DNA of 30,115 nt. It comes from a virus. Its lineage: Duplodnaviria; Caudoviricetes. The stretch is taken from positions 1 to 30,115 of IMG/VR virus record IMGVR_UViG_3300017747_002189. The stretch is one strand, 5' to 3'. The notes beneath the pieces were generated by a model, which had not been told where the DNA came from, did no database searches, and was given only the letters and a program-made list of their open reading frames with translations. A program made the position numbers and the translations under genes. Of the stretch, positions 14,886 through 28,611 are shown one piece after another (the stretch's first letter is position 1; each line of letters begins with the position of its first letter).

Positions 14886-15542
14886 TTATTTCACAGTTTT
14901 TTTCATCTTATAATGCCTTTCATAGATATGCATATTGCAAACATAATGGTAATATTTGCCTACTTTTCTTTCTAATTCTTTTGCTACCATTATTTGAAGT
15001 TCACTAAAACAGTATTGATCATTGCAGAAACCATAAACAAGATCATTTGATCTCATCATTACTTGCATACTTAATTCGTCATTATTATCTATATAAAAAT
15101 TAATAGCATATGTGCAGATTGTGTCTTTAGCATATTTGTCTATTTCTTTACCATCATACAATGAAATACTCGCTCTACGTGTCAGAGGATCATTTCTAAG
15201 CATGTCTATAACCTTATTAAGTTGGTTATTTCTTTTCCATTGATAACCATAGTTAGAATTGACATTTCCATTCTCATCCATCATGGTTGCCCATATCTTA
15301 GCTTTTTTAGATATTTCTTCCGCATTAGGATTACCTGACAAGTACCATTGGAACTCATATTCAGCATAGTATGAATTCCATTTACGCCATTCTGTTCTTA
15401 TTAAGTTTTCTTTAGGTGTTCTTATTTCAACTAATACATTATGGACTGTCTTAGTTCCATTTCTTTCTTCACCATTTTTCATTATAATGTCATACAAGTC
15501 TTCAAATGCATCTTGAGCATTATAATATGATTTGTTGTACAT
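14886..15542 (-). CDS. Thymidylate-synthase-fold enzyme of the dCMP hydroxymethylase (T4 gp42-like) type
   Basis: EFQWY, KIW..., NSNYG, TRRA, catalytic DTICT, MRSNDLVYGFCND (Asp where ThyA has Asn), NMHIYERH. Confidence 0.85.
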   Translation of the reverse strand: MYNKSYYNAQDAFEDLYDIIMKNGEERNGTKTVHNVLVEIRTPKENLIRTEWRKWNSYYAEYEFQWYLSGNPNAEEISKKAKIWATMMDENGNVNSNYGYQWKRNNQLNKVIDMLRNDPLTRRASISLYDGKEIDKYAKDTICTYAINFYIDNNDELSMQVMMRSNDLVYGFCNDQYCFSELQIMVAKELERKVGKYYHYVCNMHIYERHYKMKKTVK

Positions 15543-15927
15543 AAATCTTTGATTTTCGTAATAAGTTTAATCCATCGAGGATTCTATATTCTTCTAAGTA
15601 ATATACTTTTTTTATTCCAGATTGAATAATTATTTTGGCACATTCAAAACAAGGCGACAAAGTTACATACAATGCCGCCCCATCTGAATTGTTTGATGAC
15701 TTAGCACATTTTGCTATTGCATTTGATTCCGCATGAAGCACATCTGGTCTTGTAGATCCATCTTCTAACTCACATACATTAGGAAAACCACTAATTGTCC
15801 CATTATAACCAATTGCTATAACGTTATCTTGATTGACAATTAATGCTCCTACTTTTTTTCTTACACAGTAAGAAGCTTGTGCTACATTCAGAGCCAAATT
15901 CATGTAAAATGTATGCTTATTTTGCAT
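15520..15927 (-). CDS. dCMP deaminase (ComEB/T4 cd family)
   Basis: CVRKKVGA, GYNG, HAESNA and SPCFEC zinc motifs. Confidence 0.93.
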   Translation of the reverse strand: MQNKHTFYMNLALNVAQASYCVRKKVGALIVNQDNVIAIGYNGTISGFPNVCELEDGSTRPDVLHAESNAIAKCAKSSNNSDGAALYVTLSPCFECAKIIIQSGIKKVYYLEEYRILDGLNLLRKSKIYVQQIIL

Positions 15928-16222
15928 TCTTTACAAATGTTCCATTTTCCATTTTACCACTTCTCTTTGCAATAACTTCATATGCGCCATTAATGCAATG
16001 CTCTATTTTAACTCCCCCAAGATGAGCAAGATTTGTTAGAACAACAACGCAATCTCCTATTGCATCATTAAATTCTGAATGATCATTTTTTAAAATAGCT
16101 TTTGCAAGTTCACCTGCTTCTTCTTGTAGTTTTACGAATTGAGTCTTTACATCGCCTTTTTCATATAATCCTCTACTTCTTGCCCATTTTCTTATAGGTT
16201 CAAATTCATTAGTTAATTCCAT
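15917..16222 (-). CDS. mazG: MazG-like all-alpha NTP pyrophosphohydrolase
   Basis: KLQEEAGELAKA...DAIGDCVVVL; C-terminal KRSGKMENGTFVK. Confidence 0.88.
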   Translation of the reverse strand: MELTNEFEPIRKWARSRGLYEKGDVKTQFVKLQEEAGELAKAILKNDHSEFNDAIGDCVVVLTNLAHLGGVKIEHCINGAYEVIAKRSGKMENGTFVKNAK

Positions 16223-16223
16223 A

Positions 16224-16976
16224 TTATTTACGTTTTAATACCCACAATGTATTGCGAGATTGTTCAGGAAAAAATGGTGCCATAATTACGCTAAGCAAGT
16301 TACTATCATAGTATGCTTTTAATTCTTCAAACATTTTAACTTGCCAATCATTTAATAGATGTTTATAATCTTTAATTGAAGCAAAAGTTCCAAACTTTTT
16401 TTCAATATTAAAATATTTTTCTATATGTGATTGCAATTCAAAATGATTAAATTCTTGTACAGCAACACCTCTTCCATCTCCTGAATCATATGTATGATTT
16501 CCTGCTGCTCCTACATTTTCATCAAAGTTAGGAGTACTAATGTAATATGTAGCATTGTCATTTCCGCAATCTTTCATGTTTGAAAGAAATGCATCTATAT
16601 TCTGCTTACCAACATGTTCAGCAACTTCAAATGAACAAACCTTGTCTGCTTGAAATTGCTTGTAATCCATAGATGGCACTATTAAATCATCAGCATAAAA
16701 TTCTGCCCATTCTACTGGTTTAAATTTTTCTTTTGCTGCTTCAATAGTTTGCTTACGAATATCAATTCCTATGTATTTCTCACATTTGAATTTATTTCTA
16801 TAAAATACTTCAAGCATATTTCCTTTGCCACACCCAAAGTCTACTACTGTTTCACCAATTTTGGCTTCTTTAACAATATGTGACCATCTTAAATAATGTG
16901 CAAATTGATCTCTGTGAAATACATGCCTTTCAAATGTTGAAACAGGATCTAAATCTGTCGTGTTATACTTTTTCAT
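16224..16976 (-). CDS. Class I SAM-dependent methyltransferase (small-molecule/UbiG-like)
   Basis: VVDFGCGKG (motif I), YIGIDI, SFEVAEHV, ISTPN. Confidence 0.88.
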   Translation of the reverse strand: MKKYNTTDLDPVSTFERHVFHRDQFAHYLRWSHIVKEAKIGETVVDFGCGKGNMLEVFYRNKFKCEKYIGIDIRKQTIEAAKEKFKPVEWAEFYADDLIVPSMDYKQFQADKVCSFEVAEHVGKQNIDAFLSNMKDCGNDNATYYISTPNFDENVGAAGNHTYDSGDGRGVAVQEFNHFELQSHIEKYFNIEKKFGTFASIKDYKHLLNDWQVKMFEELKAYYDSNLLSVIMAPFFPEQSRNTLWVLKRK

Positions 16977-16990
16977 AATGGTGGTAAAAT

Positions 16991-17173
16991 TTATTGAGCT
17001 AAAGTTACTTTAGTCAATTGTTTAGAAAATAGTTTGTTATTAGATTTTACTTGACAATACTCTTTGTTGTCTTTTTTACTTGTGTAGATTTTTACAACTT
17101 CTCCTACAATTGTTGTTTTAGGTTTAGAAAATGATTCAAACTGAACATTTGCGCCGATTGTGATTGTTTCCAT
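16991..17173 (-). CDS. Small beta-rich hypothetical protein (SH3/KOW-like pattern)
   Basis: 60 aa, ITIGANVQF...GEVVKI...YCQVK; fills the gap within the operon. Confidence 0.55.
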   Translation of the reverse strand: METITIGANVQFESFSKPKTTIVGEVVKIYTSKKDNKEYCQVKSNNKLFSKQLTKVTLAQ

Positions 17174-17175
17174 TT

Positions 17176-17445
17176 TTATTTGGTTTTGTTTAAAAAATCG
17201 TTCATTGATGAAAGATAGGCAACTGCATCAAGCAAATTATCTTCTTTATGATTATAAGATTCTCTTGAAAGTTTTAATGCAATTAATGCCTTATACATTA
17301 TTTCGGCATCAACATTTAATCCTGTCATACCATTTAAAATCTGAGCTGCTCGTTGCATGCCTTCTTCAAATGGTCCATATTGTCTTTGTTTTTCTTCTGT
17401 ACGCTCATATACTATCTCATGAGCCTTCTTTAGTATATTATTCAT
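17176..17445 (-). CDS. DUF6378-like helical protein (nucleotide-modification-associated, NTP-PPase-like)
   Basis: RQYGPF...ALKLSRE...KEDNLLDAVAY pattern. Confidence 0.7.
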   Translation of the reverse strand: MNNILKKAHEIVYERTEEKQRQYGPFEEGMQRAAQILNGMTGLNVDAEIMYKALIALKLSRESYNHKEDNLLDAVAYLSSMNDFLNKTK

Positions 17446-17462
17446 GTAATAGGTTTATTACG

Positions 17463-17492
17463 CAAATATACTAATTTCTTGAAAATACACAA
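17463..17492 (-). promoter_or_regulatory. Bacteroidota-type promoter TTG-N19-TATATTTG driving the nucleotide cassette
   Basis: + strand CAAATATA at 17463-17470 and CAA at 17490-17492; 17 nt upstream of ATG 17445. Confidence 0.7.
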
Positions 17493-17520
17493 GAATTTTA
17501 TAAAATTAATTTAATACAGT

Positions 17521-17547
17521 ATAATTAATTGATAATCAATAACTTAC
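17521..17547. repeat. Imperfect palindrome, copy B
   Basis: ATAATTAATTGATAATCAATAACTTAC; its terminal TTA (17544-17546) is the terL stop codon. Confidence 0.55.
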
Positions 17548-18707
17548 ATAAAGGAATATCTTCCTCTTGAAACATTATCTAATAAGTTTAAGCATATATA
17601 ACGTGTAGCATCTATTGCGTGATTCATAAAATCTACAGGAACATTTTCAAGTTTTCCATCTTTACTTTGTTTCCATTTATATGCATTTAACTCTTTTTTT
17701 AAATTATGACTGCTTTGAGTCACATTTATTTTATATCTTTTTAGAATATTTATTGATTGCCTAATACTATCATTTCCTTTTTTTGCAGGTTCTACAAACC
17801 AACCATATGATTGTAATTCAGCAATTGACTTAGGTTCAGCAGAATCCGCAACAATAGTTCCTGATATATTTAATTCTCTCATTCTATTGCTTATATCTAC
17901 ATTTAATAATCTTTTTTCATAAATTAATTCGTCTAAAACTATTTCTCCATTTTGATTATACATTGCAATCAAAGAAGTAGGATCATTTGTAAATCCAAAG
18001 TCTAATCCATAACCTATAAGCTTTGCATCTAAACTAACATTTGGTATAATATTATAATCTCTAAAAATTACTCCTTCTAATTTACCAGTTAATCCTCTTG
18101 CATAAACTTTCCATAATTCTGGATCTTCAATTGATTCAATTTTGTTATGAATGTTCTGATCTAAAAACGTATTATGACGATGATCTGAAATTATTAATGT
18201 AACATTTTCTTTACCTATTAAATCACTATGTACCCAAAACTCTGTATTTGGGTTATAATCTAAATATGTTCTTCTTTTTGTTCTTAAATATAATTCATCA
18301 AATATTGGCTTAGGTATTCCATTAACCTCATTCATAAACAAATAATCACGTTTTCCAGATTTAGCATCTTGCCAATCATCATAACTTTTAAACTCTATAA
18401 TAGAACCATTAAAAAATGTAAATACCCTATCTGACTTATTATAATTATTAATGTATGCTTGTAATATTTCACTTGATGAAAGAATAGTTTCAGCATCTCT
18501 TAATGCACCAACTTTTAAATTTGGAATATCTTGACCAACAACAGTAATAACTTGATTTGGTTCTTCAATAGCATGCAAAAATAGATTCTGCATTATTGCA
18601 TAGGTTTTACCTGAAGAGGTTCCACCTTGATTAATTATTATTTCTGTTTTAGCATCTCTATTTGCCTTAAAAACATCTGTTGTTTGAAAAATATTATTTT
18701 GTAACAT
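17544..18707 (-). CDS. terL: Terminase large subunit (PBSX/SPP1-like)
   Basis: Walker A QGGTSSGKT, Walker B YLFMNE, coupling motif DYNP, nuclease GLDFGFTNDP, ADSAEP, NHAIDATRY. Confidence 0.96.
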   Translation of the reverse strand: MLQNNIFQTTDVFKANRDAKTEIIINQGGTSSGKTYAIMQNLFLHAIEEPNQVITVVGQDIPNLKVGALRDAETILSSSEILQAYINNYNKSDRVFTFFNGSIIEFKSYDDWQDAKSGKRDYLFMNEVNGIPKPIFDELYLRTKRRTYLDYNPNTEFWVHSDLIGKENVTLIISDHRHNTFLDQNIHNKIESIEDPELWKVYARGLTGKLEGVIFRDYNIIPNVSLDAKLIGYGLDFGFTNDPTSLIAMYNQNGEIVLDELIYEKRLLNVDISNRMRELNISGTIVADSAEPKSIAELQSYGWFVEPAKKGNDSIRQSINILKRYKINVTQSSHNLKKELNAYKWKQSKDGKLENVPVDFMNHAIDATRYICLNLLDNVSRGRYSFM

Positions 18708-19107
18708 CTACATCTGTTTCTCTATTTGCTAAAGGAACTTGACTTGAATTTATAATAACTTCAATTTTCCCTTGTAATTGACCGTTTACATTTGCATCAA
18801 TTGTTTCTCTTGGCTTGCCAAAAGTTCTTGTTAATAATGTATCTAAAGAATATAAACTACCTTTTTTTAATGATTTTATAATTGAATTCGCAACAGTAAC
18901 TTCTAATACAGTTGCCTCAGGATTTTCTGTAACTTCAATTAATTCATCAACAGTCATTGAAATTAATACTTGTATTGCATCATTAACTTCAGATAATTTA
19001 TAACCCTGATCTTTTAAATTTGAAACATATTTTCTTGGTCTGCCATTCATATTTCTTTTTTCATCATACCCTTTTTTAAAGGGTTTTAAGTTTTGTTCAT
19101 TTGCCAT
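18694..19107 (-). CDS. terS: Terminase small subunit (putative)
   Basis: NEQNLKPFKKG...NMNGRPRK N-terminal motif, LLTRTFGKP; overlaps the terL start. Confidence 0.8.
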   Translation of the reverse strand: MANEQNLKPFKKGYDEKRNMNGRPRKYVSNLKDQGYKLSEVNDAIQVLISMTVDELIEVTENPEATVLEVTVANSIIKSLKKGSLYSLDTLLTRTFGKPRETIDANVNGQLQGKIEVIINSSQVPLANRETDVDVTK

Positions 19108-19133
19108 ATATTATATTTTGACAAATTATAAAA

Positions 19134-19256
19134 TTATCTACCTTGACCACGATAATTTTTTTCTTTTTTATCGTGTTTATTAAATGCTCTTTGTGCTTTG
19201 CCTTTTTTTCTTTTACCAAAGGTAACTTTTATTTTATCTGCTGATCCTTTTTTCAT
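19134..19256 (-). CDS. Small basic peptide (40 aa), not in ORF track
   Basis: MKKGSADKIKVTFGKRKKGKAQRAFNKHDKKEKNYRGQGR; fills the gap between methyltransferase and terS. Confidence 0.7.
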   Translation of the reverse strand: MKKGSADKIKVTFGKRKKGKAQRAFNKHDKKEKNYRGQGR

Positions 19257-19257
19257 C

Positions 19258-19788
19258 TTACATCAATTGATAAATCTTTGACCATTCTGTGGGAAGTGTA
19301 AGTTGTTTGTGTACCCTGTATCCTAACTTTAAAAAGAAATCATCCCACTCTTTTTGTTCTTTTACGTTTATATGTCCCCACATTTCATCATTGGCAGTCT
19401 TTTGACTTGTACTGCTGAACAGAATCCATATAGGATTGATCTGCTCGAATATCAAAGCAATCTGATTATCTGTCATATGCTCTGCAGTTTCAATAAACAT
19501 CAATATATCTGTTTTTGGCAGTTTGCTTACAATCTGTAATTCAGGTAAATGTATCTTTAAATAATCTTTATGAGCCTTAAATTTCTCGAATGCATAAACC
19601 TCGAACCCATGTTCAATTGCTGCCTTTGCATATGCCCCAACTCCACAACCATAATCCAGAATCTTTGAGCCATATCCATTGAGTTGAGCAACTGTATTTC
19701 TTGCTAAATCCATGAATGCAGGATTGTCTAAACTAATCCCCATTTTTAATTCTGTTTCCAGAAATTCTTTATCAGTACATTTTGCCAT
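19258..19788 (-). CDS. Class I SAM-dependent methyltransferase
   Basis: ILDYGCGVG, FIETAEHM, GHINVK..EW. Confidence 0.85.
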   Translation of the reverse strand: MAKCTDKEFLETELKMGISLDNPAFMDLARNTVAQLNGYGSKILDYGCGVGAYAKAAIEHGFEVYAFEKFKAHKDYLKIHLPELQIVSKLPKTDILMFIETAEHMTDNQIALIFEQINPIWILFSSTSQKTANDEMWGHINVKEQKEWDDFFLKLGYRVHKQLTLPTEWSKIYQLM

Positions 19789-20038
19789 AAATTTCTATAA
19801 ATCTGTGATGTGTTTGTTTTAGTAATTCTGTGTATTCTTTTTTGTCACCATACTTTTCATGGCACATTCTGCATACTGCCATCAGGTTTTCGATCTTGTC
19901 TTTGTCTTTGCTGCTACCCATCCCCCGACAATCAATATGATGAATGTCAACAGCTTTATTACCGCATACTTCACAGCCAATAAAATCTTCGATTCCATAT
20001 CCAAAATATTTCATGTAAATTTTAGTGTGCTGCTTCAT
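19772..20038 (-). CDS. HNH endonuclease
   Basis: CEVCG...DIHHI...ENLMAVCRMCH. Confidence 0.88.
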   Translation of the reverse strand: MKQHTKIYMKYFGYGIEDFIGCEVCGNKAVDIHHIDCRGMGSSKDKDKIENLMAVCRMCHEKYGDKKEYTELLKQTHHRFIEIYGKMY

Positions 20039-20331
20039 TTCGTACCATCTTGTAAAGGTTCATGCACTTCAGGCTCTATTCTCCTGTAATGCTCTGACCA
20101 TAAAATTTTAGTTAAAGTTATTGATTTTTCAACAACCTCCTGTTCTGTTGCTTCCGGAAATAATATGTGAAATACTTCATGGATGACAATCTCTAAATGT
20201 TTACGGGATTTAATCGAAGGATCAATTTCAATTAAGCCATCAGAATGTGCAATACCCCAAGCTTTTTCTTTTCCAAGCTTACGGTATTTAATCCTGATCT
20301 TTGGCTTTCCTTTTCTAAGCAGCAACGTCAT
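20035..20331 (-). CDS. Small HExxH zincin-like metalloprotein
   Basis: AWGIA...IEIDP...IHEVFH...EQEV. Confidence 0.7.
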   Translation of the reverse strand: MTLLLRKGKPKIRIKYRKLGKEKAWGIAHSDGLIEIDPSIKSRKHLEIVIHEVFHILFPEATEQEVVEKSITLTKILWSEHYRRIEPEVHEPLQDGTK

Positions 20332-20509
20332 CTTTCATTTCCATTAAATCGGGTCTTTCTAAATCTGACAAATCTATTTTATGATTACCTCGCACCTTTG
20401 CCAATGCCCTCCTGTATATTTCCTCTTTCCTGTATAACTCCTGCATTTTCTTAATCAAATACACTTCCTGTTCTTCGATGCTCATTTTATTTATTTTTTT
20501 AGGTAACAT
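20315..20509 (-). CDS. Hypothetical protein
   Basis: 64 aa, helical; tightly packed between neighbouring genes. Confidence 0.6.
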   Translation of the reverse strand: MLPKKINKMSIEEQEVYLIKKMQELYRKEEIYRRALAKVRGNHKIDLSDLERPDLMEMKDDVAA

Positions 20510-20510
20510 A

Positions 20511-21266
20511 TTATTTGTCGGTTTTAGAATGAAATTTATGGCAGGTATTACATTTATACTGAATCTTTTTAACTCCTGATGCTGTTGTTCTTCTCATACT
20601 TACAATAATATCATCTGATCCACATTCAGGGCAAGTACCTCTGTCAGCACCGAATAAAACCCCATAATGACTCTTTGGCTCTATATGATTATTAAGGTGT
20701 TTGAATACTTTTTCAAGTAATACAACATCCATTTTACAATACTTAATCATTTTCTCCATTGCCTGTTGGTCGCTTTCCATTAATATGGATTTCCACAAAT
20801 CAAACTCAGTCTTTATCTTTTGCCCGATTCCTAAATACTTAGCAATGTAATTAAGCCTGTTTGAATTAAACCTGAACTTGGACCTCGCAACCTTTAGAGT
20901 ATCAATAGTTGTATATTTCGGGAACATATCAATACCATGATACAAACATCTTGTCCTAATCCATGCCAAATCAAACTTATCGCCATTATGCCCAACCAAT
21001 TCAGTTGCCTGATTAGCCACCTCAATGAACTGTTGAAGCATTTTCTTGTCACATTGTTTCTTGTCCCAATGCAAAGAATAAATTTGCTTTTCTTCCTCCC
21101 ACTTGTAACAAATACAAATGATCGCTCTTTCTTTTATAATGTTAGAGTAATCAATGTTTTGTTTATAACCTGCTGACCAAAACAGTCCGATGTTTGGACT
21201 TGTTTCGATATCAAAAAATAATCGCCTACGTTTTGTCGGCATAAGGAATGTATTTTGTTTTGCCAT
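20511..21266 (-). CDS. DEDD 3'-5' exonuclease (RNase_H_2/PolB-exo-like) with C-terminal zinc ribbon
   Basis: FFDIETS, GHNGDKFD, YCKMDV; CPECG...CNTC. Confidence 0.88.
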   Translation of the reverse strand: MAKQNTFLMPTKRRRLFFDIETSPNIGLFWSAGYKQNIDYSNIIKERAIICICYKWEEEKQIYSLHWDKKQCDKKMLQQFIEVANQATELVGHNGDKFDLAWIRTRCLYHGIDMFPKYTTIDTLKVARSKFRFNSNRLNYIAKYLGIGQKIKTEFDLWKSILMESDQQAMEKMIKYCKMDVVLLEKVFKHLNNHIEPKSHYGVLFGADRGTCPECGSDDIIVSMRRTTASGVKKIQYKCNTCHKFHSKTDK

Positions 21267-21696
21267 TTTCTTTTATGGCTCTCAATACCTGCTTCCGCTG
21301 CTGACCATTTGATTTGAAAGATACATGAACCCAATCAGGTTCAATATTATTCCCAAATTCGTAAATCAACTGATCGAAATTAAGCTTTTCTTTTATAAAA
21401 TTAAAAATTTCTTTATTTGTGATTTTTGTGCCTTCCATATCAATGTCAATCGCTTCGCCTGTACTGTGCTGTGAATTGGTTGCACCACCGATAGCTGCAT
21501 TCAATGATTGACTTCTATATCCTGAACTTATACGTATAGGCTGTCTGAAATTTGCACGTATAGGCTCGAAAACATTTTCAGCTAACTTTTTAAGGTTAGC
21601 AATGTGCTGTTCAGTTGGCATATTTGAAATGCCCCTTCTCTTGGCTGATTCTGATCTGATGACCTCAGCCAATTCAAGGTGTTCACTCAGTTTCAT
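21226..21696 (-). CDS. Endolysin, peptidase M15 family
   Basis: ISSGYRS..LNAAIGG..NSQHSTGEAID...WVHVS. Confidence 0.9.
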   Translation of the reverse strand: MKLSEHLELAEVIRSESAKRRGISNMPTEQHIANLKKLAENVFEPIRANFRQPIRISSGYRSQSLNAAIGGATNSQHSTGEAIDIDMEGTKITNKEIFNFIKEKLNFDQLIYEFGNNIEPDWVHVSFKSNGQQRKQVLRAIKENGKTKYIPYADKT

Positions 21697-21878
21697 TTCT
21701 TAAATATTTTTTCCGCTGTTGTAAGTCCTAAATATCCTGCACCAATGAAAGCAATCGAAGTAACCAAAACATCACCACCTCTGTGAAACAATTCAGCACA
21801 AAGACTGACTGTGCAGAGAAATCCGCACAATCGCTTCATGCTTAATCTGTTATTATCTTCGGTAAAGAATTGCCTCAT
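21693..21878 (-). CDS. Holin-like membrane protein
   Basis: 61 aa, RLSMKR followed by two hydrophobic segments, basic C-terminus; coupled to the endolysin gene. Confidence 0.6.
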   Translation of the reverse strand: MRQFFTEDNNRLSMKRLCGFLCTVSLCAELFHRGGDVLVTSIAFIGAGYLGLTTAEKIFKK

Positions 21879-22033
21879 TTCTTTTTCTCGCTTCTAATTT
21901 TATAAACGTTATAAACAATTGTTGTTATACCGACTCCAATGGTTACTATGTTGCCCATTTCAGATAAAGTAACGTTTGCAAATATGTTTGTCAGGATTGT
22001 GGCAAAGCACATTCCAATACTATTTTTGTCCAT
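21875..22033 (-). CDS. Second holin-like membrane protein (52 aa), not in ORF track
   Basis: MDKNSIGMCFATILTNIFANVTLSEMGNIVTIGVGITTIVYNVYKIRSEKKK; ATGA overlap with the next gene. Confidence 0.65.
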   Translation of the reverse strand: MDKNSIGMCFATILTNIFANVTLSEMGNIVTIGVGITTIVYNVYKIRSEKKK

Positions 22034-22442
22034 CTTTTATTTCTTGTAATTTACGTTGAGCCCATTCGATACCTGCTTGCCCACCCCATGCATCTACAGC
22101 TAAACCTCCACAACCTTTTGAATATGGGACATCTTTATATTGCAAATGTCTTGCAAATGCCGCCATTCTTGCAATTGTATCTCTTGTAATATTTTCTTTT
22201 CTTGCTAATTGATATGCTCTGGCTTTACCTACAGGAGTTAAGCATGATCCCCATCCATTTTTTTCTGCCCAATCTATTGCTCTTTTTGCTGCGTTTACCG
22301 CTGATTGTGGATAATCATTGTAACTGTCTGCCATTGCAACCCTGATTGCTGCCCATGCTCTGTGTGCTTTTTCCTCTGAATCGTAAATACATGATCCGTT
22401 ACCAATTCTGTATTTTCCGTTTGAGCATTTTATAACAGGCAT
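22020..22442 (-). CDS. Conserved phage protein (WGGxxGxxWA motif), possibly head-associated
   Basis: SYNDYP...GKARAYQLA...TIARMAAFARH...AWGGQAGIEWAQRKL. Confidence 0.6.
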   Translation of the reverse strand: MPVIKCSNGKYRIGNGSCIYDSEEKAHRAWAAIRVAMADSYNDYPQSAVNAAKRAIDWAEKNGWGSCLTPVGKARAYQLARKENITRDTIARMAAFARHLQYKDVPYSKGCGGLAVDAWGGQAGIEWAQRKLQEIKDGQK

Positions 22443-23435
22443 TTAGATCAGTTTATTATAAATGCTGTTTCTTTTAATATTTATCTGTTTAAAATTAAAA
22501 TTGCTTTGGCAATATTCAAAAAGCTGCTGTCCTAACTCCACTCGCATCTGTGGATCATTTAACAAATTCTTTATATGCCTATACCAATCAGATTGTTTTT
22601 TAACATATAAAACAGGAAGGTTTTTATATGGGTGGACATCAGAAACTATAGCAGGGTTTTTCTTTGCTGCAGTTTCTAAAACCTTAAGATTACTTTTCAT
22701 TCCGTTAAACTTTGACTCAACCAAAGGAATCAAACTTACATCAGAGTCTGCATAGGCGGCCATATATCTCTCAATTGGTGCATACCTATAAATGTGAGTG
22801 TCAAGTTTCCTACCTGCTGAGAAATAATAGCACATATTATTCCAGACTTCGCCTTCGCTTTCATTATAACCTGCAATGACCATTTTTACATTATCACCAA
22901 TTAATCTCTTTACAGGTTCTTTAATGATCTTTAAATCCTTTTCATGTGTTCCTGATCCTGACCAAAACAGTCTAAGTTTATCAGATTCGATTTTATTGTC
23001 CATAAATTGCTCCTCTCCATATGGTAAAGCATTAGGCAAAATTTCTACATTCTGATTGTATTGATAAATACCATCTGCAAGTCTTTCATGAGTACAGGTA
23101 CATAAATCTGCAATCTTTATATATTGAATTATTTTATCAGTTATATTATTTGCCTCATATCTATTATAAAGTATATGAGTTGCATTAAGTTGCCAATAAT
23201 CATCATTGTCAACCACTAATTTAAAACCATATTTATTTCGCCAATCAATTATCTGCTGAATGCTTATATCAGCCAAGAACCTATTCATAACAAATATATC
23301 AAATCCCTGACTAACTATTTCCTCACTAAGTGTATCAGTTACCAAACAATAATCTTTCTGCATATGTACTAAAGGCAGCATTATTCTGTGATACCCTACA
23401 CCTGAAAACTTCGATGTTATTGCAAGTATTCTCAT
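22443..23435 (-). CDS. Glycosyltransferase (GT-B fold, GT4-like)
   Basis: SGVGYHRIMLP, VVDNDDYW, ILPNA, WSGSGTH, DVSLIPL..SKFNGMKSNLKVLE...IVSDVHPY. Confidence 0.88.
   Translation of the reverse strand: MRILAITSKFSGVGYHRIMLPLVHMQKDYCLVTDTLSEEIVSQGFDIFVMNRFLADISIQQIIDWRNKYGFKLVVDNDDYWQLNATHILYNRYEANNITDKIIQYIKIADLCTCTHERLADGIYQYNQNVEILPNALPYGEEQFMDNKIESDKLRLFWSGSGTHEKDLKIIKEPVKRLIGDNVKMVIAGYNESEGEVWNNMCYYFSAGRKLDTHIYRYAPIERYMAAYADSDVSLIPLVESKFNGMKSNLKVLETAAKKNPAIVSDVHPYKNLPVLYVKKQSDWYRHIKNLLNDPQMRVELGQQLFEYCQSNFNFKQINIKRNSIYNKLI
22457..22485 (-). promoter_or_regulatory. Putative late promoter GATA-N17-CATTTATA, inside the glycosyltransferase 3' end
   Basis: + strand TAAATG at 22459-22464 and TATC at 22482-22485, 17-bp spacer; upstream of the lysis/packaging block. 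Confidence 0.6.
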
Positions 23436-23734: not shown

Positions 23735-23973
23735 GATAGTATTTTATAAATTTTTAAGAATAACATTCTCATAATTGGAGCAAGTGATCCTGCAGTAAAC
23801 ATATAAGCCATTATTTCTGTAATCTCTACAGGCAAAAAATAAAGTGCCAATGCTATCCATGCTGCCAAGCAACTCGCACAGTTAAAAGGTTTAAAATCTA
23901 ATTTCCACTTTTGATCAAATCTATGTATTTCAACAAAGAATATTGAAAACATTAAAGCTGCAATTATTATCAT
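23731..23973 (-). CDS. Small membrane protein with CxxC (DUF1360-like)
   Basis: KPFNCASCLAAWIAL, three hydrophobic segments. Confidence 0.6.
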   Translation of the reverse strand: MIIIAALMFSIFFVEIHRFDQKWKLDFKPFNCASCLAAWIALALYFLPVEITEIMAYMFTAGSLAPIMRMLFLKIYKILS

Positions 23974-24452
23974 TTTCTTATTAGTTTTTTTAATTCGTTT
24001 TTAGTCTGGTTTAAAGTTCTTATTATGCTCATATATGGAATCCCTGTCTGTCTACTCAACTCCTTTGCGTTACACTTGAACTCAAAAGCATAGAGTCTTA
24101 ATATTTCCTTTTGATACCAATATAATCCCTCAATATGTTGCATAACATTTTCTGATACATCAACTTCTATTTCATCTGCTTTTTCTATAGGTTGCCACTC
24201 TACAAAATCTCTGTATTTTTTAAAAAATTTTTTATCTGTAGATCTTACAAGATTTAACATTATACGCACCATGTAAAATCTAATCTGTTTTTTTTCATAT
24301 AACTCAATAACTTTTTTTTCATCAAGTTCTGCTATAATTAAAAACACTTCACTTTTTAAATCATCTTGTAATTCAACAGGATGCATTTTTTTAATAGCTT
24401 GATTAACATCATCACTATTCCACAACTCTGTTAATATTGCATTTTTGTCCAT
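23970..24452 (-). CDS. ECF-sigma-like transcription factor
   Basis: Likely start MDKN at 24452. Region-2-like QDDLKSEVFL...FYMVRIMLN; region-4 HTH LYWYQKEILRLY...AKELSRQTGIPYMSIIRTL. Confidence 0.7.
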   Translation of the reverse strand: MDKNAILTELWNSDDVNQAIKKMHPVELQDDLKSEVFLIIAELDEKKVIELYEKKQIRFYMVRIMLNLVRSTDKKFFKKYRDFVEWQPIEKADEIEVDVSENVMQHIEGLYWYQKEILRLYAFEFKCNAKELSRQTGIPYMSIIRTLNQTKNELKKLIRK

Positions 24453-24781
24453 TTGTTTAAAATTGGATTTAAACCTTGTTGTGTACATATAAATGCAATA
24501 CCACCGCAGTCAATTATATCATTTAATCTATCTATTTGTTCTTTACTTAATCTATCTCCTATTTTTTTAACCTCTATTGCAACATATAACCCTAATTGAT
24601 TATATCCCTGTAAATCTGACCATCCTTTTTCTATTGTTCCTTTTCTTCTCCTGACAGGTATATTGTTGACTCTGTTCAGTCTCATTCCAAGTCTTTCTCC
24701 TTCCATTTTCGCCCATTTTGTTAGATCCGAAGCGGTTAACTCCTTGGATAATTCCGCAATATGGGCACTCTTTTTTGCCAT
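24431..24781 (-). CDS. VRR-NUC/PD-(D/E)xK nuclease (resolvase-like)
   Basis: GWSDLQG...AIEVK..GDRLSKEQ..RL....GGIAFI. Confidence 0.85.
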   Translation of the reverse strand: MAKKSAHIAELSKELTASDLTKWAKMEGERLGMRLNRVNNIPVRRRKGTIEKGWSDLQGYNQLGLYVAIEVKKIGDRLSKEQIDRLNDIIDCGGIAFICTQQGLNPILNKWTKMQY

Positions 24782-24841
24782 GTTTATTTTTATAAACAGT
24801 TACAGTATAAAATTTAAAACAGGATTTACAACGCAATTTAA

Positions 24842-25519
24842 TTATTTTTTTAATAAGTTATCAAAATATTCAGCTACTGCCATTCTTCTGCAAGCTAATT
24901 CCATGTATTCATCATCTTCTAACAACTCATTCATTTCTTTTTTTTCTTTATATGAAGCATATAAGAATTTCTTTTTTATTGCTTCTTCTGTTCTTTTTAA
25001 AGTACCTTCAAAATCTGTTATTAAGTTTTGTTTATACAAAATATTAAAACATCTTAATCCATAAAATACATGCTCCCAATCTTTGTTTTTCTTGTAAATA
25101 TCCATTGACATTTGTAATATTTCATCATCTGATATTTTTGGAGCTTCTATTTGCTTTTGTTCTACAGGTTTTTCTTCAATCTTATGTCTATAAGCCCATC
25201 TTGCATATGATGTCATTAATCTTGAAAGATATAAAGCTGAAAAATTTTGATATGTTTCAGGGTTTTCATCAAGTTTGTTTTTAATCATTAAATCAAAAGC
25301 TAATTTGAACTCACCAATCGGTAACTGTCCATAATCAACTTTCATCATTTGACTCATGTATTTTATTTCAAATTCTGATGGTAATCTTTCTCCTTTTACA
25401 CCTAAAAGAATCATTGCTTTTGTTATAATCTCAACTATATCAATAGTTGATGAGTCCATTAGTTTTGGAGTCTTCTTGGCCTCCGATAGAAGCTCTAAGT
25501 CTTTCGTAATAGTCTGCAT
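24842..25519 (-). CDS. Hypothetical replication protein (occupies the helicase-loader position)
   Basis: 225 aa, helical, overlapping the initiator 3' end; function inferred from position only. Confidence 0.5.
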   Translation of the reverse strand: MQTITKDLELLSEAKKTPKLMDSSTIDIVEIITKAMILLGVKGERLPSEFEIKYMSQMMKVDYGQLPIGEFKLAFDLMIKNKLDENPETYQNFSALYLSRLMTSYARWAYRHKIEEKPVEQKQIEAPKISDDEILQMSMDIYKKNKDWEHVFYGLRCFNILYKQNLITDFEGTLKRTEEAIKKKFLYASYKEKKEMNELLEDDEYMELACRRMAVAEYFDNLLKK

Positions 25520-26108
25520 ATATTTCCGTTTTTGTTTTTGGTGATTTAAAACTATTGTTAAAATTAGAATTATTTATCCAAACAGCTAACATTTTTTGTT
25601 TCCAATTTTTTACTGGTTTCCCTTTGCTATCATGCCAATTAGCAGTTTCATAATATTCAAAGGCTTGTTTTGCCTTTTCTACAGTTGATCCTTTTTCTAT
25701 AAAATAATCTTCAACTTCTAAAACTGTTGGCTTCTTTAATCTCTTATTTTTATTTTCATTTATATTTTCATTTTCATTTTCCATATGCATAGGCATATGC
25801 TGTTGCATATGCTCAGGCATATGCTTAGTTTTTGCATTATTTCTTCTTGAATTGGTATAATTTGACCTCTTTTCTGATTCATCAAACATTCTTTTATTGA
25901 TATAATACCCATCTACAAGTTCAAATTTATCATATACATCAGGTGCATATGCTTTGCATATGCTTAGCATATCCTTTTCTGTTAACTTACCTTTTTGATG
26001 TTGCAAACATAATAACCTTATGTACATTCCAACTTCTTCATTTGTCATTGAAAATGTTCCACTTAAAAAATCACTTGTATAAAACAAGACTGCTGGATCT
26101 TTTGCCAT
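25440..26108 (-). CDS. Replication initiator, DUF1376/YdaU-like N-terminus
   Basis: KDPAVLFYTSDFLSGT..MTNEEVGMYIRLLC; ENENEN linker; C-terminal PTVLEV...FEYYETANW...GKPVKNWK. Confidence 0.78.
   Translation of the reverse strand: MAKDPAVLFYTSDFLSGTFSMTNEEVGMYIRLLCLQHQKGKLTEKDMLSICKAYAPDVYDKFELVDGYYINKRMFDESEKRSNYTNSRRNNAKTKHMPEHMQQHMPMHMENENENINENKNKRLKKPTVLEVEDYFIEKGSTVEKAKQAFEYYETANWHDSKGKPVKNWKQKMLAVWINNSNFNNSFKSPKTKTEIYADYYERLRASIGGQEDSKTNGLINY
25741..25974. repeat. Iteron-like GCATATGC palindromes plus AT-rich tract (putative origin)
   Basis: Copies at 25781 (CCATATGC), 25793, 25805, 25817 (12-bp period) and 25945, 25956, 25967 (GCATATCC; 11-bp period); AT-rich 25741-25780. Confidence 0.75.
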
Positions 26109-26199
26109 AAAATAAAAATCCCTGAATGGGATTGGAAATGCAGTTCCGCACCCATCAGGGACATTAATGTTTTCTTATAGAAGGCTGCATCCTTCGTAT
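26109..26199 (-). ncRNA. Structured 5' leader: two hairpins with complementary 6-nt loops
   Basis: Hairpin 1 GAAGG-AUGCAG-CCUUC. Hairpin 2 UCCCUGA.UGGG..GGAA-CUGCAU-UUCC..CCCA.UCAGGGA, followed by UUUUUAUUUU-AUG. Confidence 0.65.
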
Positions 26200-26201
26200 T
26201 G

Positions 26202-26209
26202 CAAATTTA
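26202..26209 (-). promoter_or_regulatory. Bacteroidota-type -7 element TAAATTTG
   Basis: TAnnTTTG match just upstream of the structured leader. Confidence 0.6.
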
Positions 26210-26725
26210 ACAATTAATTTCTAAATTACCATGATTAATTTTTAATCTACCTTCAATAATATCTTTACATTGATTATATTTTGATGCAAAAATTTCATCT
26301 ACTTCTAATAAATTCTTGCATTTTTTAACAGAACTTATAACTGTAGTATGATCAGCATATGTAGATAAATATTCACCTATTTCTTTGTAACTCAAATCAG
26401 TATATGTTCTTAAAAGTAAACATACACAATGTCTTGCATCAGTAACTTTTCTGTGTCTTGTTTTTAACCTACAATCTGTTTCAAAAACATAATTTACACT
26501 TGCTATTACTTCATCAGCTGGCTTATGTGTATAAACAGCAGTTCTTTTAGTTAATGGATAATGTTCTAAAAGACGCTGTAGTTTTAACATGCTTTCTTCA
26601 TGTTCTTTTATAATACGGGTAAAATCATTAATAATATTAAGAATAGTATTACGAGTCACTATATGTGTCCCTATTTGATTCTTTAATATATTAGAATTAA
26701 TTCTTAGTTCATCTACATTAATCAT
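26207..26725 (-). CDS. Protein with DnaA domain IV (Bac_DnaA_C)-like HTH
   Basis: KTRHRKVTDARH...RTYTDLSYKEIGEYL...DHTTVISSVKK matches the DnaA C-terminal signature; no AAA+ domain. Confidence 0.8.
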   Translation of the reverse strand: MINVDELRINSNILKNQIGTHIVTRNTILNIINDFTRIIKEHEESMLKLQRLLEHYPLTKRTAVYTHKPADEVIASVNYVFETDCRLKTRHRKVTDARHCVCLLLRTYTDLSYKEIGEYLSTYADHTTVISSVKKCKNLLEVDEIFASKYNQCKDIIEGRLKINHGNLEINC

Positions 26726-28580: not shown

Positions 28581-28611
28581 AAAAAAGAATGCCCCTGTAC
28601 TTACAAGGGCA
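28581..28611 (-). terminator. Intrinsic terminator ending the late operon
   Basis: - strand TGCCCTTGT-AAGT-ACAGGGGCA followed by TTCTTTTTT; overlaps the spanin stop codon. Confidence 0.8.

What the first reader, a model, noticed from the sequence alone, without database searches (positions are those of the whole stretch)
26109..26209. Kissing-loop RNA candidate in the leader of the replication initiator
Seen on the - strand right after a TAAATTTG -7 element. Hairpin 1 is AUA(C)GAAGG-[AUGCAG]-CCUUC-UAU (26199-26177). A 15-nt A/U-rich linker follows. Hairpin 2 is UCCCUGA-UGGG-ugc-GGAA-[CUGCAU]-UUCC-aau-CCCA-u-UCAGGGA (26161-26119). Then come UUUUUAUUUU and the AUG. The two 6-nt loops are exact reverse complements. 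The element is GC-rich in an AT-rich genome, and hairpin 2 plus the U-tract resembles a terminator. Established: loop-loop and pseudoknot RNAs control Rep expression in several plasmid families. Inference: a cis-regulatory RNA (attenuator, riboswitch-like or protein-binding) or a ~85-nt sRNA controlling replication. I cannot assign it to a known family.
Basis: partly seen in the sequence, partly recalled or inferred. Interest (0 to 1): 0.8.

Follow-up and report, generated by a model that had tools for sequence, protein, structure and literature searches.

The report
Kissing-loop leader gating phage replication genes
Ahead of this freshwater phage's DNA-replication genes lies a short leader whose two hairpin tips are complementary; related phages keep the match with different letters, and it likely decides whether transcription stops or runs on into those genes.

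Summary
The element is real and conserved. A Bacteroidota -7 box, hairpin 1, an A/U linker, terminator-like hairpin 2 and a U-tract precede a DUF1376 initiator-like gene. Of 79 related leaders chosen without regard to loops, 67 have a 6-nt or longer complement between the terminator loop and upstream sequence (nulls 2-4%). All 7 kissing pairs covary; 32 code pairs were seen. Cultured Flavobacterium phages carry it too. I found no antisense promoter, conserved leader peptide, conventional antiterminator, covarying partner elsewhere or integrase. Best reading: a transcription attenuator in which the kiss opposes terminator closure, as in the guanidine-IV riboswitch but without its conserved ligand bases. 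Codes change in multi-base bursts between near-identical phages, hinting that the stopped ~85-nt RNA also acts in trans as a self-specific repressor; this is untested. No Rfam match, though hairpin 2 may be Fremin's anonymous DNAVirus_187. This scan has noted the same design on other DNA before.

The parts
26202..26209 (-). Bacteroidota -7 promoter box TAAATTTG, overlapping the stop codon of the upstream gene; start of transcription predicted at 26197
   Evidence: consensus TANNTTTG from PMC6847099 and position -12 to -5 from PMC9723704; a -7-like box was assigned about 89-122 nt before the ATG in 72 of 75 hand-picked leaders, two of them degenerate
26180..26195 (-). Hairpin 1 (GAAGG / CCUUC) with kissing loop L1 AUGCAG at 26190-26185; G26191 can add a G.U pair
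   Evidence: fold; covariation
26163..26179 (-). 17-nt unpaired A/U-rich linker
   Evidence: 14-26 nt in 40 distinct geometries once hairpin 2 is trimmed to its outermost G-C pairs
26118..26162 (-). Hairpin 2: G+C-rich basal stem, 3x3 internal loop UGC/AAU (26150-26148, 26133-26131), 4-bp apical stem, kissing loop L2 CUGCAU (26143-26138); predicted intrinsic terminator stem
   Evidence: -23 kcal/mol, z -3.94
26109..26118 (-). U-tract UUUUUAUUUU, directly before the AUG
   Evidence: mean 6.3 U in the 8 nt after the last G-C pair (n=40); 7.4 T per 12 nt before leader-proximal starts (n=19) against 3.3 before 659 other starts in 21 genomes
25440..26108 (-). 222-aa DUF1376-like protein, probable replication initiator; the gene directly gated
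   Evidence: Pfam DUF1376 E 3e-6, below cut-off; close homolog over cut-off; PHROG primosomal protein E 1.5e-5; relatives in cultured Flavobacterium phages annotated replication protein and followed by primase/helicase
25779..25974 (.). Palindromic GCATATGC repeats at 11-12 bp spacing inside the initiator gene (25779-25835 and 25945-25974); iteron-like, origin inferred
26207..26725 (-). Upstream 172-aa gene with a DnaA domain-IV-type helix-turn-helix; last gene before the leader
   Evidence: Bac_DnaA_C E 1e-11
23970..25519 (-). Genes following the initiator on the same strand: 225-aa unknown, VRR-NUC nuclease, sigma-70-like protein; likely gated by the same leader
   Evidence: sigma70-ECF E 0.004, below cut-off; Atlas neighbours with Sigma70_r4; co-transcription inferred from overlapping ORFs

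Best explanation
It is a conserved RNA leader in which the loop of a 5' hairpin is complementary to the loop of a predicted transcription terminator, and it likely works as an attenuator that lets RNA polymerase into the replication genes only when the two loops pair. Shown from sequence: promoter box, two hairpins, a 6-7 bp covarying kiss, U-tract and downstream initiator-like gene. Inferred: hairpin 1 folds first; the small apical part of hairpin 2 then folds and kisses it; the stacked helices pull on the short linker and hinder closure of the basal terminator stem, giving read-through. Without the kiss the terminator closes and an RNA of about 80-88 nt is released. The most likely trigger, also inferred, is that released RNA: its free L2 loop would bind L1 of a nascent leader during the roughly 40 nt before the leader's own L2 is made. 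That would give negative feedback on the replication operon, specific to phages with the same 7-base code.
For: Covariation: on 25 aligned compact leaders all 7 kissing pairs change on both sides, 98.3% of cells pair, 0 of 500 shuffles reach the whole-structure score, and slid controls pair 36-53%. 32 code pairs average 6.8 of 7 paired against 3.8 for 988 cross pairs; 0 of 100,000 permutations reach it (members picked by eye). Selection blind to loops: 67 of 79 leaders have a complement of 6 nt or more, nulls 3.7% and 2.4%. Blind scan of 21 genomes: of 30 promoter-plus-terminator units, all 19 replication leaders kiss and 1 of the 11 others does. Terminator: U-rich starts unlike the A-rich starts of other genes; sense strand folds better in 42 of 54 distinct hairpins. 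No nested antiterminator: median cost 7.2 kcal/mol over 66 leaders, 9.1 in the window. Geometry: L1-to-L2 distance 38-49 nt in 75 leaders; hairpin 1 and 2 arm lengths trade off (rho -0.89 over 10 hand-grouped subtypes). Precedent: in guanidine-IV a kiss hinders terminator completion and P2 growth shortens the linker (PMC11611296; PMC7736828). For action in trans: G007, G008 and G010 are 91-94% identical with near-identical portals yet carry three codes. In 26 independent nearest pairs the kiss differs at 37 of 368 nt against 36 of 979 in stems. The kiss changes come in bursts (p 3e-5; stems p 0.89). Two leaders in one genome use different codes.
Against: No experiment and no usable transcript ends. 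The steric argument is weaker than for guanidine-IV: helix length over linker length is 0.55-1.04 (0.66 in the window) against about 2.5 read by eye for guanidine-IV, so kiss and full terminator could coexist. The kiss is not uniformly faster than the stems: it was faster in 6 pairs and slower in 9, sign test p 0.61, and 19 of 26 pairs have no change. Its rate (10%) is below the linker's (13%). Fremin's probable match is scored 'no' by the terminator predictor RNIE. The carriers look non-integrating (0 of 20 for two integrase families), so there is no lysogenic state to repress. The direction (kiss = on) rests on analogy.
Confidence: 0.5

Rival explanations
1. A purely cis, fixed-ratio attenuator: the kiss sets a constant leak through the terminator to keep initiator, nuclease or tRNA expression low, nothing acts in trans, and the codes drift.
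For: No partner outside the leader. The same design sits before unrelated genes: an HNH nuclease and a tRNA-like gene. Kiss rate is below linker rate and the sign test is not significant.
Against: Multi-base code swaps between otherwise near-identical leaders, such as L055/L113 (7 changes in the kiss, 1 elsewhere) and L119/L135 (10 and 4), are hard to get by drift.
Confidence: 0.2
3. Translational control: hairpin 2 and the U-rich start damp ribosome loading, and the kiss or a protein loosens the basal stem.
For: The stem ends about 10 nt before the AUG and the start lacks the upstream adenines that favour initiation in Flavobacterium (PMC6847099).
Against: In cultured phages the U-tract follows the stem but the AUG lies up to about 50 nt further on, so the U-tract goes with the hairpin, not with the start codon.
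Confidence: 0.08
4. A riboswitch for a small molecule or ion that stabilises the kiss, like guanidine-IV.
For: Same two-hairpin layout. First kissing base G in 30 of 32 codes, second U in 24 of 32. A 3x3 internal loop is conserved within the window's subtype.
Against: No position of the kiss is invariant; internal loops differ between subtypes. Downstream genes are not transporters or metabolic genes.
Confidence: 0.07
5. A single-stranded DNA structure of the replication origin or a primer site.
For: It adjoins the initiator gene, and both strands fold.
Against: Iteron-like repeats lie elsewhere, inside the gene. Sense-strand folding bias, G.U pairs in the kiss and the fixed promoter-to-U-tract order point to RNA. 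Copies sit before genes unrelated to origins.
Confidence: 0.03

Closest known systems
Guanidine-IV (GGAM-1 / mepA) riboswitch; PMC7736828 (passages and section 13 read), PMC11611296 (passages and supplementary file 15 part 1)
   Same: A 5' hairpin loop kisses the loop of an intrinsic terminator; there is no classical antiterminator; steric hindrance through the linker is the proposed switch.
   Different: No invariant ligand bases, at least 32 interchangeable codes, a 6-8 bp kiss, a 14-26 nt linker against about 5, and phage replication genes downstream instead of guanidine exporters.
P4 CI RNA (seqA/seqC) and relatives (P1/P7 C4, Gifsy-1 IsrK); passage in PMC4825925 section 21; C4 details recalled
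   Same: A short RNA from the leader of a phage replication operon is complementary to an upstream site of the same leader, and premature termination is the output.
   Different: One site pair only, no downstream second target found, no Rfam C4-type match, no conserved coupled small ORF in the compact form, and carriers lack integrases.
I-complex plasmid rep control (IncI/IncB/IncK pseudoknot and antisense RNAI); passages of PMC10724649; leader-peptide details recalled
   Same: Loop pairing in the leader of a replication initiator, with a few loop bases setting specificity.
   Different: No counter-transcript promoter, no conserved leader peptide, and a terminator-like hairpin in place of a Shine-Dalgarno switch.
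DNAVirus_187 of Fremin et al. 2023, PMC10690425 (table rows and passages read; alignments unreadable)
   Same: 49 nt, 122 sequences, mostly freshwater tailed phages, within 25 bp upstream of DUF1376 (54) and DUF4373 (36) genes; the length matches hairpin 2 (34-49 nt in most members).
   Different: Too short to hold both hairpins; not mentioned in the main text; no kiss or function in what I could read; identity with this family not verified.

Membership tests
Guanidine-IV riboswitch | 5' hairpin loop pairs with the loop of the terminator hairpin | tested here: met
   covariation
Guanidine-IV riboswitch | 97%-conserved G66, U67, G72 in the second (terminator) loop | tested here: not met
   feature; L2 here is CUGCAU and varies; the G-U bias lies in the other loop and is 30/32 and 24/32
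Guanidine-IV riboswitch | Upstream of sugE/mepA-type genes | tested here: not met
   initiator-like, HNH and tRNA-like genes follow
Guanidine-IV riboswitch | Binds guanidine and raises read-through | not testable with these tools
   needs in-line probing and transcription assays
P4 CI / P1 C4 antisense immunity | Leader-encoded short RNA complementary to an upstream site of the same leader | tested here: met
   layout only: L2 with L1; existence of the short RNA not shown
P4 CI / P1 C4 antisense immunity | Second target downstream (seqC type) | tested here: not met
   no covarying site outside the leader in aligned blocks of 21 genomes; the outside candidates were synonymous codons or a hairpin stem; unaligned regions not covered
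P4 CI / P1 C4 antisense immunity | Maintains lysogeny of a temperate phage | tested here: not met
   0 of 20 genomes with PF00589 or PF07508; Muminvirus carriers described as lytic only (PMC7077304); a non-integrating carrier state is not excluded
P4 CI / P1 C4 antisense immunity | Match to Rfam C4-type models | tested here: not met
   no gathering-level hit in the window or 20 loci apart from one tRNA; only CRISPR-repeat and SscA noise at E 1-9
P4 CI / P1 C4 antisense immunity | Regulator released by RNase processing and active in trans | not testable with these tools
   no raw reads available
I-complex plasmid rep pseudoknot | Antisense RNA from an opposite-strand promoter | tested here: not met
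   1 antisense -7 box within 350 nt in 21 genomes, 6.1 expected
I-complex plasmid rep pseudoknot | Conserved leader peptide coupled to rep (recalled) | tested here: not met
   50 of 66 leaders have an ATG in the first 9 nt, but length and frame scatter and the window has none there
DNAVirus_187 (Fremin 2023) | 49-nt structure within 25 bp upstream of DUF1376/DUF4373 genes in freshwater phages | tested here: inconclusive
   context and length fit hairpin 2; alignment and model files could not be read

The most novel reading that the evidence does not exclude
Lytic Bacteroidota phages use a protein-free self-recognition circuit: the prematurely terminated leader RNA kisses nascent leaders with the same 7-base code and shuts their replication operon. 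That would time the phage's own replication and exclude later-arriving kin, while selecting for code-swapped escapers, like plasmid incompatibility groups but with sensor, repressor and terminator in one ~85-nt sense-strand RNA.
Probability: 0.25. Interest if true: 0.85.

Novelty: new variant of a known kind. Interest (0 to 1): 0.66.

Why it matters
It would extend the kiss-versus-terminator switch, described for a ligand-binding riboswitch, to a widespread phage element with no apparent ligand. It would place RNA control on the replication operon of phages that lack integrases and have no obvious repressor system. If the code acts in trans, it gives a simple, mutable self/non-self signal between co-infecting phages and a natural set of about 30 largely orthogonal attenuators for Bacteroidota genetics. 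Cultured phages with three different codes that infect two related Flavobacterium isolates make it directly testable.

Tried and rejected
Rfam: no family; I did not check whether Rfam 15 holds a guanidine-IV model. RNA evidence: only two contig-level runs with small shares were offered. One 328-nt contig identical to 26201-26528 ends 4 nt before the predicted start; contigs cannot show ends, so it is not used as evidence, and read-level ends remain unexamined. Partner elsewhere in the genome: no consistent hairpin-loop copy; own-code count 332 against 297 expected; four aligned candidate positions did not follow the code across genomes. Antisense RNA, leader peptide and nested antiterminator rejected for the compact form. 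The likeness of AUGCAG to the GCATATGC repeats is taken as coincidence, since relatives with another code keep the same encoded HMP repeats. Model R1 was built on an imperfect alignment (11 pairs). It found one strong copy in each of 14 of 21 genomes and nothing in 5 MAGs, one of which holds a member of another subtype, so it says nothing about absence. A terminase tree failed; the portal tree is the quick version only, with 19 of 21 genomes. Rows dropped: L033 and L046 (start not found), 6 loci without a start codon, 6 non-family pattern hits, L175, L026 and L048, L138 (misfolded hairpin 1). Literature: 10 searches found no description of this kissing leader. The library lacks most subscription papers, and three Fremin supplements plus two archives were unreadable. 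PMC5737381 was read in passages only.

Full report
Observation. On the - strand a TAAATTTG box (26209-26202) is followed by GAAGG-[AUGCAG]-CCUUC (26195-26180), a 17-nt A/U linker, a 45-nt hairpin with loop CUGCAU (26162-26118), UUUUUAUUUU and the AUG at 26108. The predicted transcript leader folds at -29 kcal/mol, z -4.14. The AUA/UAU extension is not in the fold. TANNTTTG is the Bacteroidetes -7 consensus (PMC6847099, passages) and spans -12 to -5 (PMC9723704, passages), so the start is predicted at 26197 and hairpin 1 begins almost at +1. There is no Rfam match in the window or in 20 related loci, apart from one tRNA.

Context. The window is a 30-kb tailed-phage record, about 90% complete. 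The gene below the leader is DUF1376-like and carries iteron-like GCATATGC repeats. Its relatives in cultured Flavobacterium phages precede primase/helicase genes, so 'initiator' is a reasonable inference. It is followed by an unknown protein, a VRR-NUC nuclease and a sigma-70-like protein. The host is inferred to be Bacteroidota from the promoter type and these relatives.

Conservation. Loci came from protein searches and stem-pattern searches. 277 leaders collapsed to 194 unique, of which 190 were analysed. Without looking at loops, 82 of 190 have a -7 box 88-135 nt before the ATG and 79 of those also have a terminator-like hairpin. 67 of the 79 have a complement of 6 nt or more between that loop and upstream sequence, against 3.7% with shuffled and 2.4% with swapped upstream regions. 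Seven of the 12 exceptions form a different subtype in which the 5' end appears, by eye, to pair into the side of the hairpin. On a 25-sequence alignment all 7 kissing pairs change on both sides and 98.3% of cells pair; slid controls pair 36-53%. Among 75 hand-picked leaders there are 32 code pairs, 6.8 of 7 paired against 3.8 across. The leader stays when the initiator's N-terminal domain changes from DUF1376 to HTH types. In a blind scan of 21 genomes, 1,148 promoter-like boxes gave 30 promoter-terminator units; all 19 replication leaders detected kiss, as does 1 of the other 11. Two known leaders were missed by that scan. Cultured phages morran9-1, tooticki6-1, hattifnatt9-1, mumin6-1 and elemoC carry the design with compensatory changes. 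Muminvirus is described as lytic only (PMC7077304, passages).

What it is not. No antisense promoter: 1 box against 6.1 expected in 21 genomes. No conserved leader peptide in 66 compact leaders, and no nested antiterminator: median cost 7.2 kcal/mol. No covarying partner elsewhere in aligned parts of 21 genomes. No tyrosine or large serine integrase in 20 of 20 relatives, 19 of them at least 90% complete.

Mechanism. Hairpin 2 has the anatomy of an intrinsic terminator: 6.3 U in the next 8 nt on average, and U-rich starts where 659 other starts in these genomes are A-rich. With no competing nested fold, the kiss is the only conserved feature that could oppose it. That is the logic of the guanidine-IV riboswitch, where the kiss hinders completion of the terminator and growth of the stem shortens the linker (PMC11611296; PMC7736828). 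The geometry is constrained here too: L1 to L2 is 38-49 nt, and long hairpin 1 goes with short hairpin 2 (rho -0.82 over 40 related geometries; -0.89 over 10 subtypes). Against this, the crude helix-to-linker ratio is 0.55-1.04, 0.66 in the window, far below about 2.5 for guanidine-IV. Any hindrance may therefore be kinetic or depend on the polymerase, and the direction of the switch is inferred.

Trigger. The ligand bases of guanidine-IV are absent and the code is free, so a small molecule is unlikely. The code changes in an odd way. Three genomes 91-94% identical, with portal branches under 0.01, carry three codes. In 26 independent nearest pairs the kiss differs at 10.1% of sites against 3.7% in stems and 13% in the linker. 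The changes are clumped: 7 pairs change, by 5.3 nt on average (dispersion p 3e-5; stems p 0.89), while a sign test shows no general excess (6 against 9, p 0.61). Where a genome has two such leaders they use different codes. Bursts of this kind are what escape from a trans-acting, code-matched repressor would leave. The only candidate found is the terminated leader itself, which echoes P4 CI RNA (PMC4825925, one passage). Recombination or templated mutation could also give bursts; I did not test these. I put the attenuator reading at about 0.7, kiss-means-read-through at about 0.5, and the trans step at about 0.25.

Comparison and novelty. It works like guanidine-IV in layout and perhaps like P4 CI in logic, but fails defining tests for both and for I-complex plasmid control (see membership). 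Fremin et al. 2023 list an anonymous 49-nt structure, DNAVirus_187, within 25 bp of DUF1376 genes in freshwater phages. It is probably hairpin 2 of this family or a sister; its alignment could not be read, which bears on the novelty claim. Ten literature searches found no account of the kissing leader. Earlier notes of this scan report the same design on other DNA; none matched this sequence. They gave me the guanidine-IV, HNH-leader and trans-partner leads, which I tested here; they are not counted as support.

Verdict. A real, well-supported RNA element, best filed as a new variant of kissing-loop attenuation, with an untested but specific case for RNA-coded self-recognition in lytic phages. 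Interest 0.66.

Noticed in passing
window 25779-25835 and 25945-25974; one related copy near 26347-26360: Palindromic GCATATGC repeats at 11-12 bp spacing inside the initiator gene, iteron-like.
   Followed up: partly
L150:198-299, L351:480-581, L352:480-581: A second kissing leader with its own code (GTCGTCG/CGACGAC) before a NUMOD4-HNH endonuclease gene in cultured Flavobacterium phages.
   Followed up: partly
G016, position 15835 in the leader-oriented sequence: Three-hairpin variant with GTAGAG/CTCTAC match ahead of a tRNA-like sequence that ARAGORN did not call.
   Followed up: partly
L012, L014, L016, L018, L061, L073, L249 leaders: Larger leader type with a 33-codon upstream ORF through the hairpin; in four it stops on the initiator's start (ATGA overlap), in three it runs in frame or on.
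   Followed up: partly
L045, L047, L049, L050, L052, L053, L057 leaders: Subtype with a conserved 13-codon upstream ORF and, by eye, a 5' segment pairing into the side of a 72-76 nt hairpin.
   Followed up: partly
window 26207-26725: Stand-alone DnaA domain-IV-like helix-turn-helix gene just before the leader, also in G001; role unknown.
   Followed up: no
window 23970-24488: Sigma-70-like protein three genes below the initiator, a possible late-gene activator.
   Followed up: partly
L312:7762-9213: XkdF-type protease domain fused to a Zeta_toxin/AAA domain in relative G001.
   Followed up: no
window 28590-28611, - strand: Terminator-like hairpin ahead of the small-gene cluster that leads to the leader.
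   Followed up: no
window 14886-23435: Thymidylate synthase-like, methyltransferase, stand-alone exonuclease, M15 endolysin and glycosyltransferase genes around the terminase.
   Followed up: no
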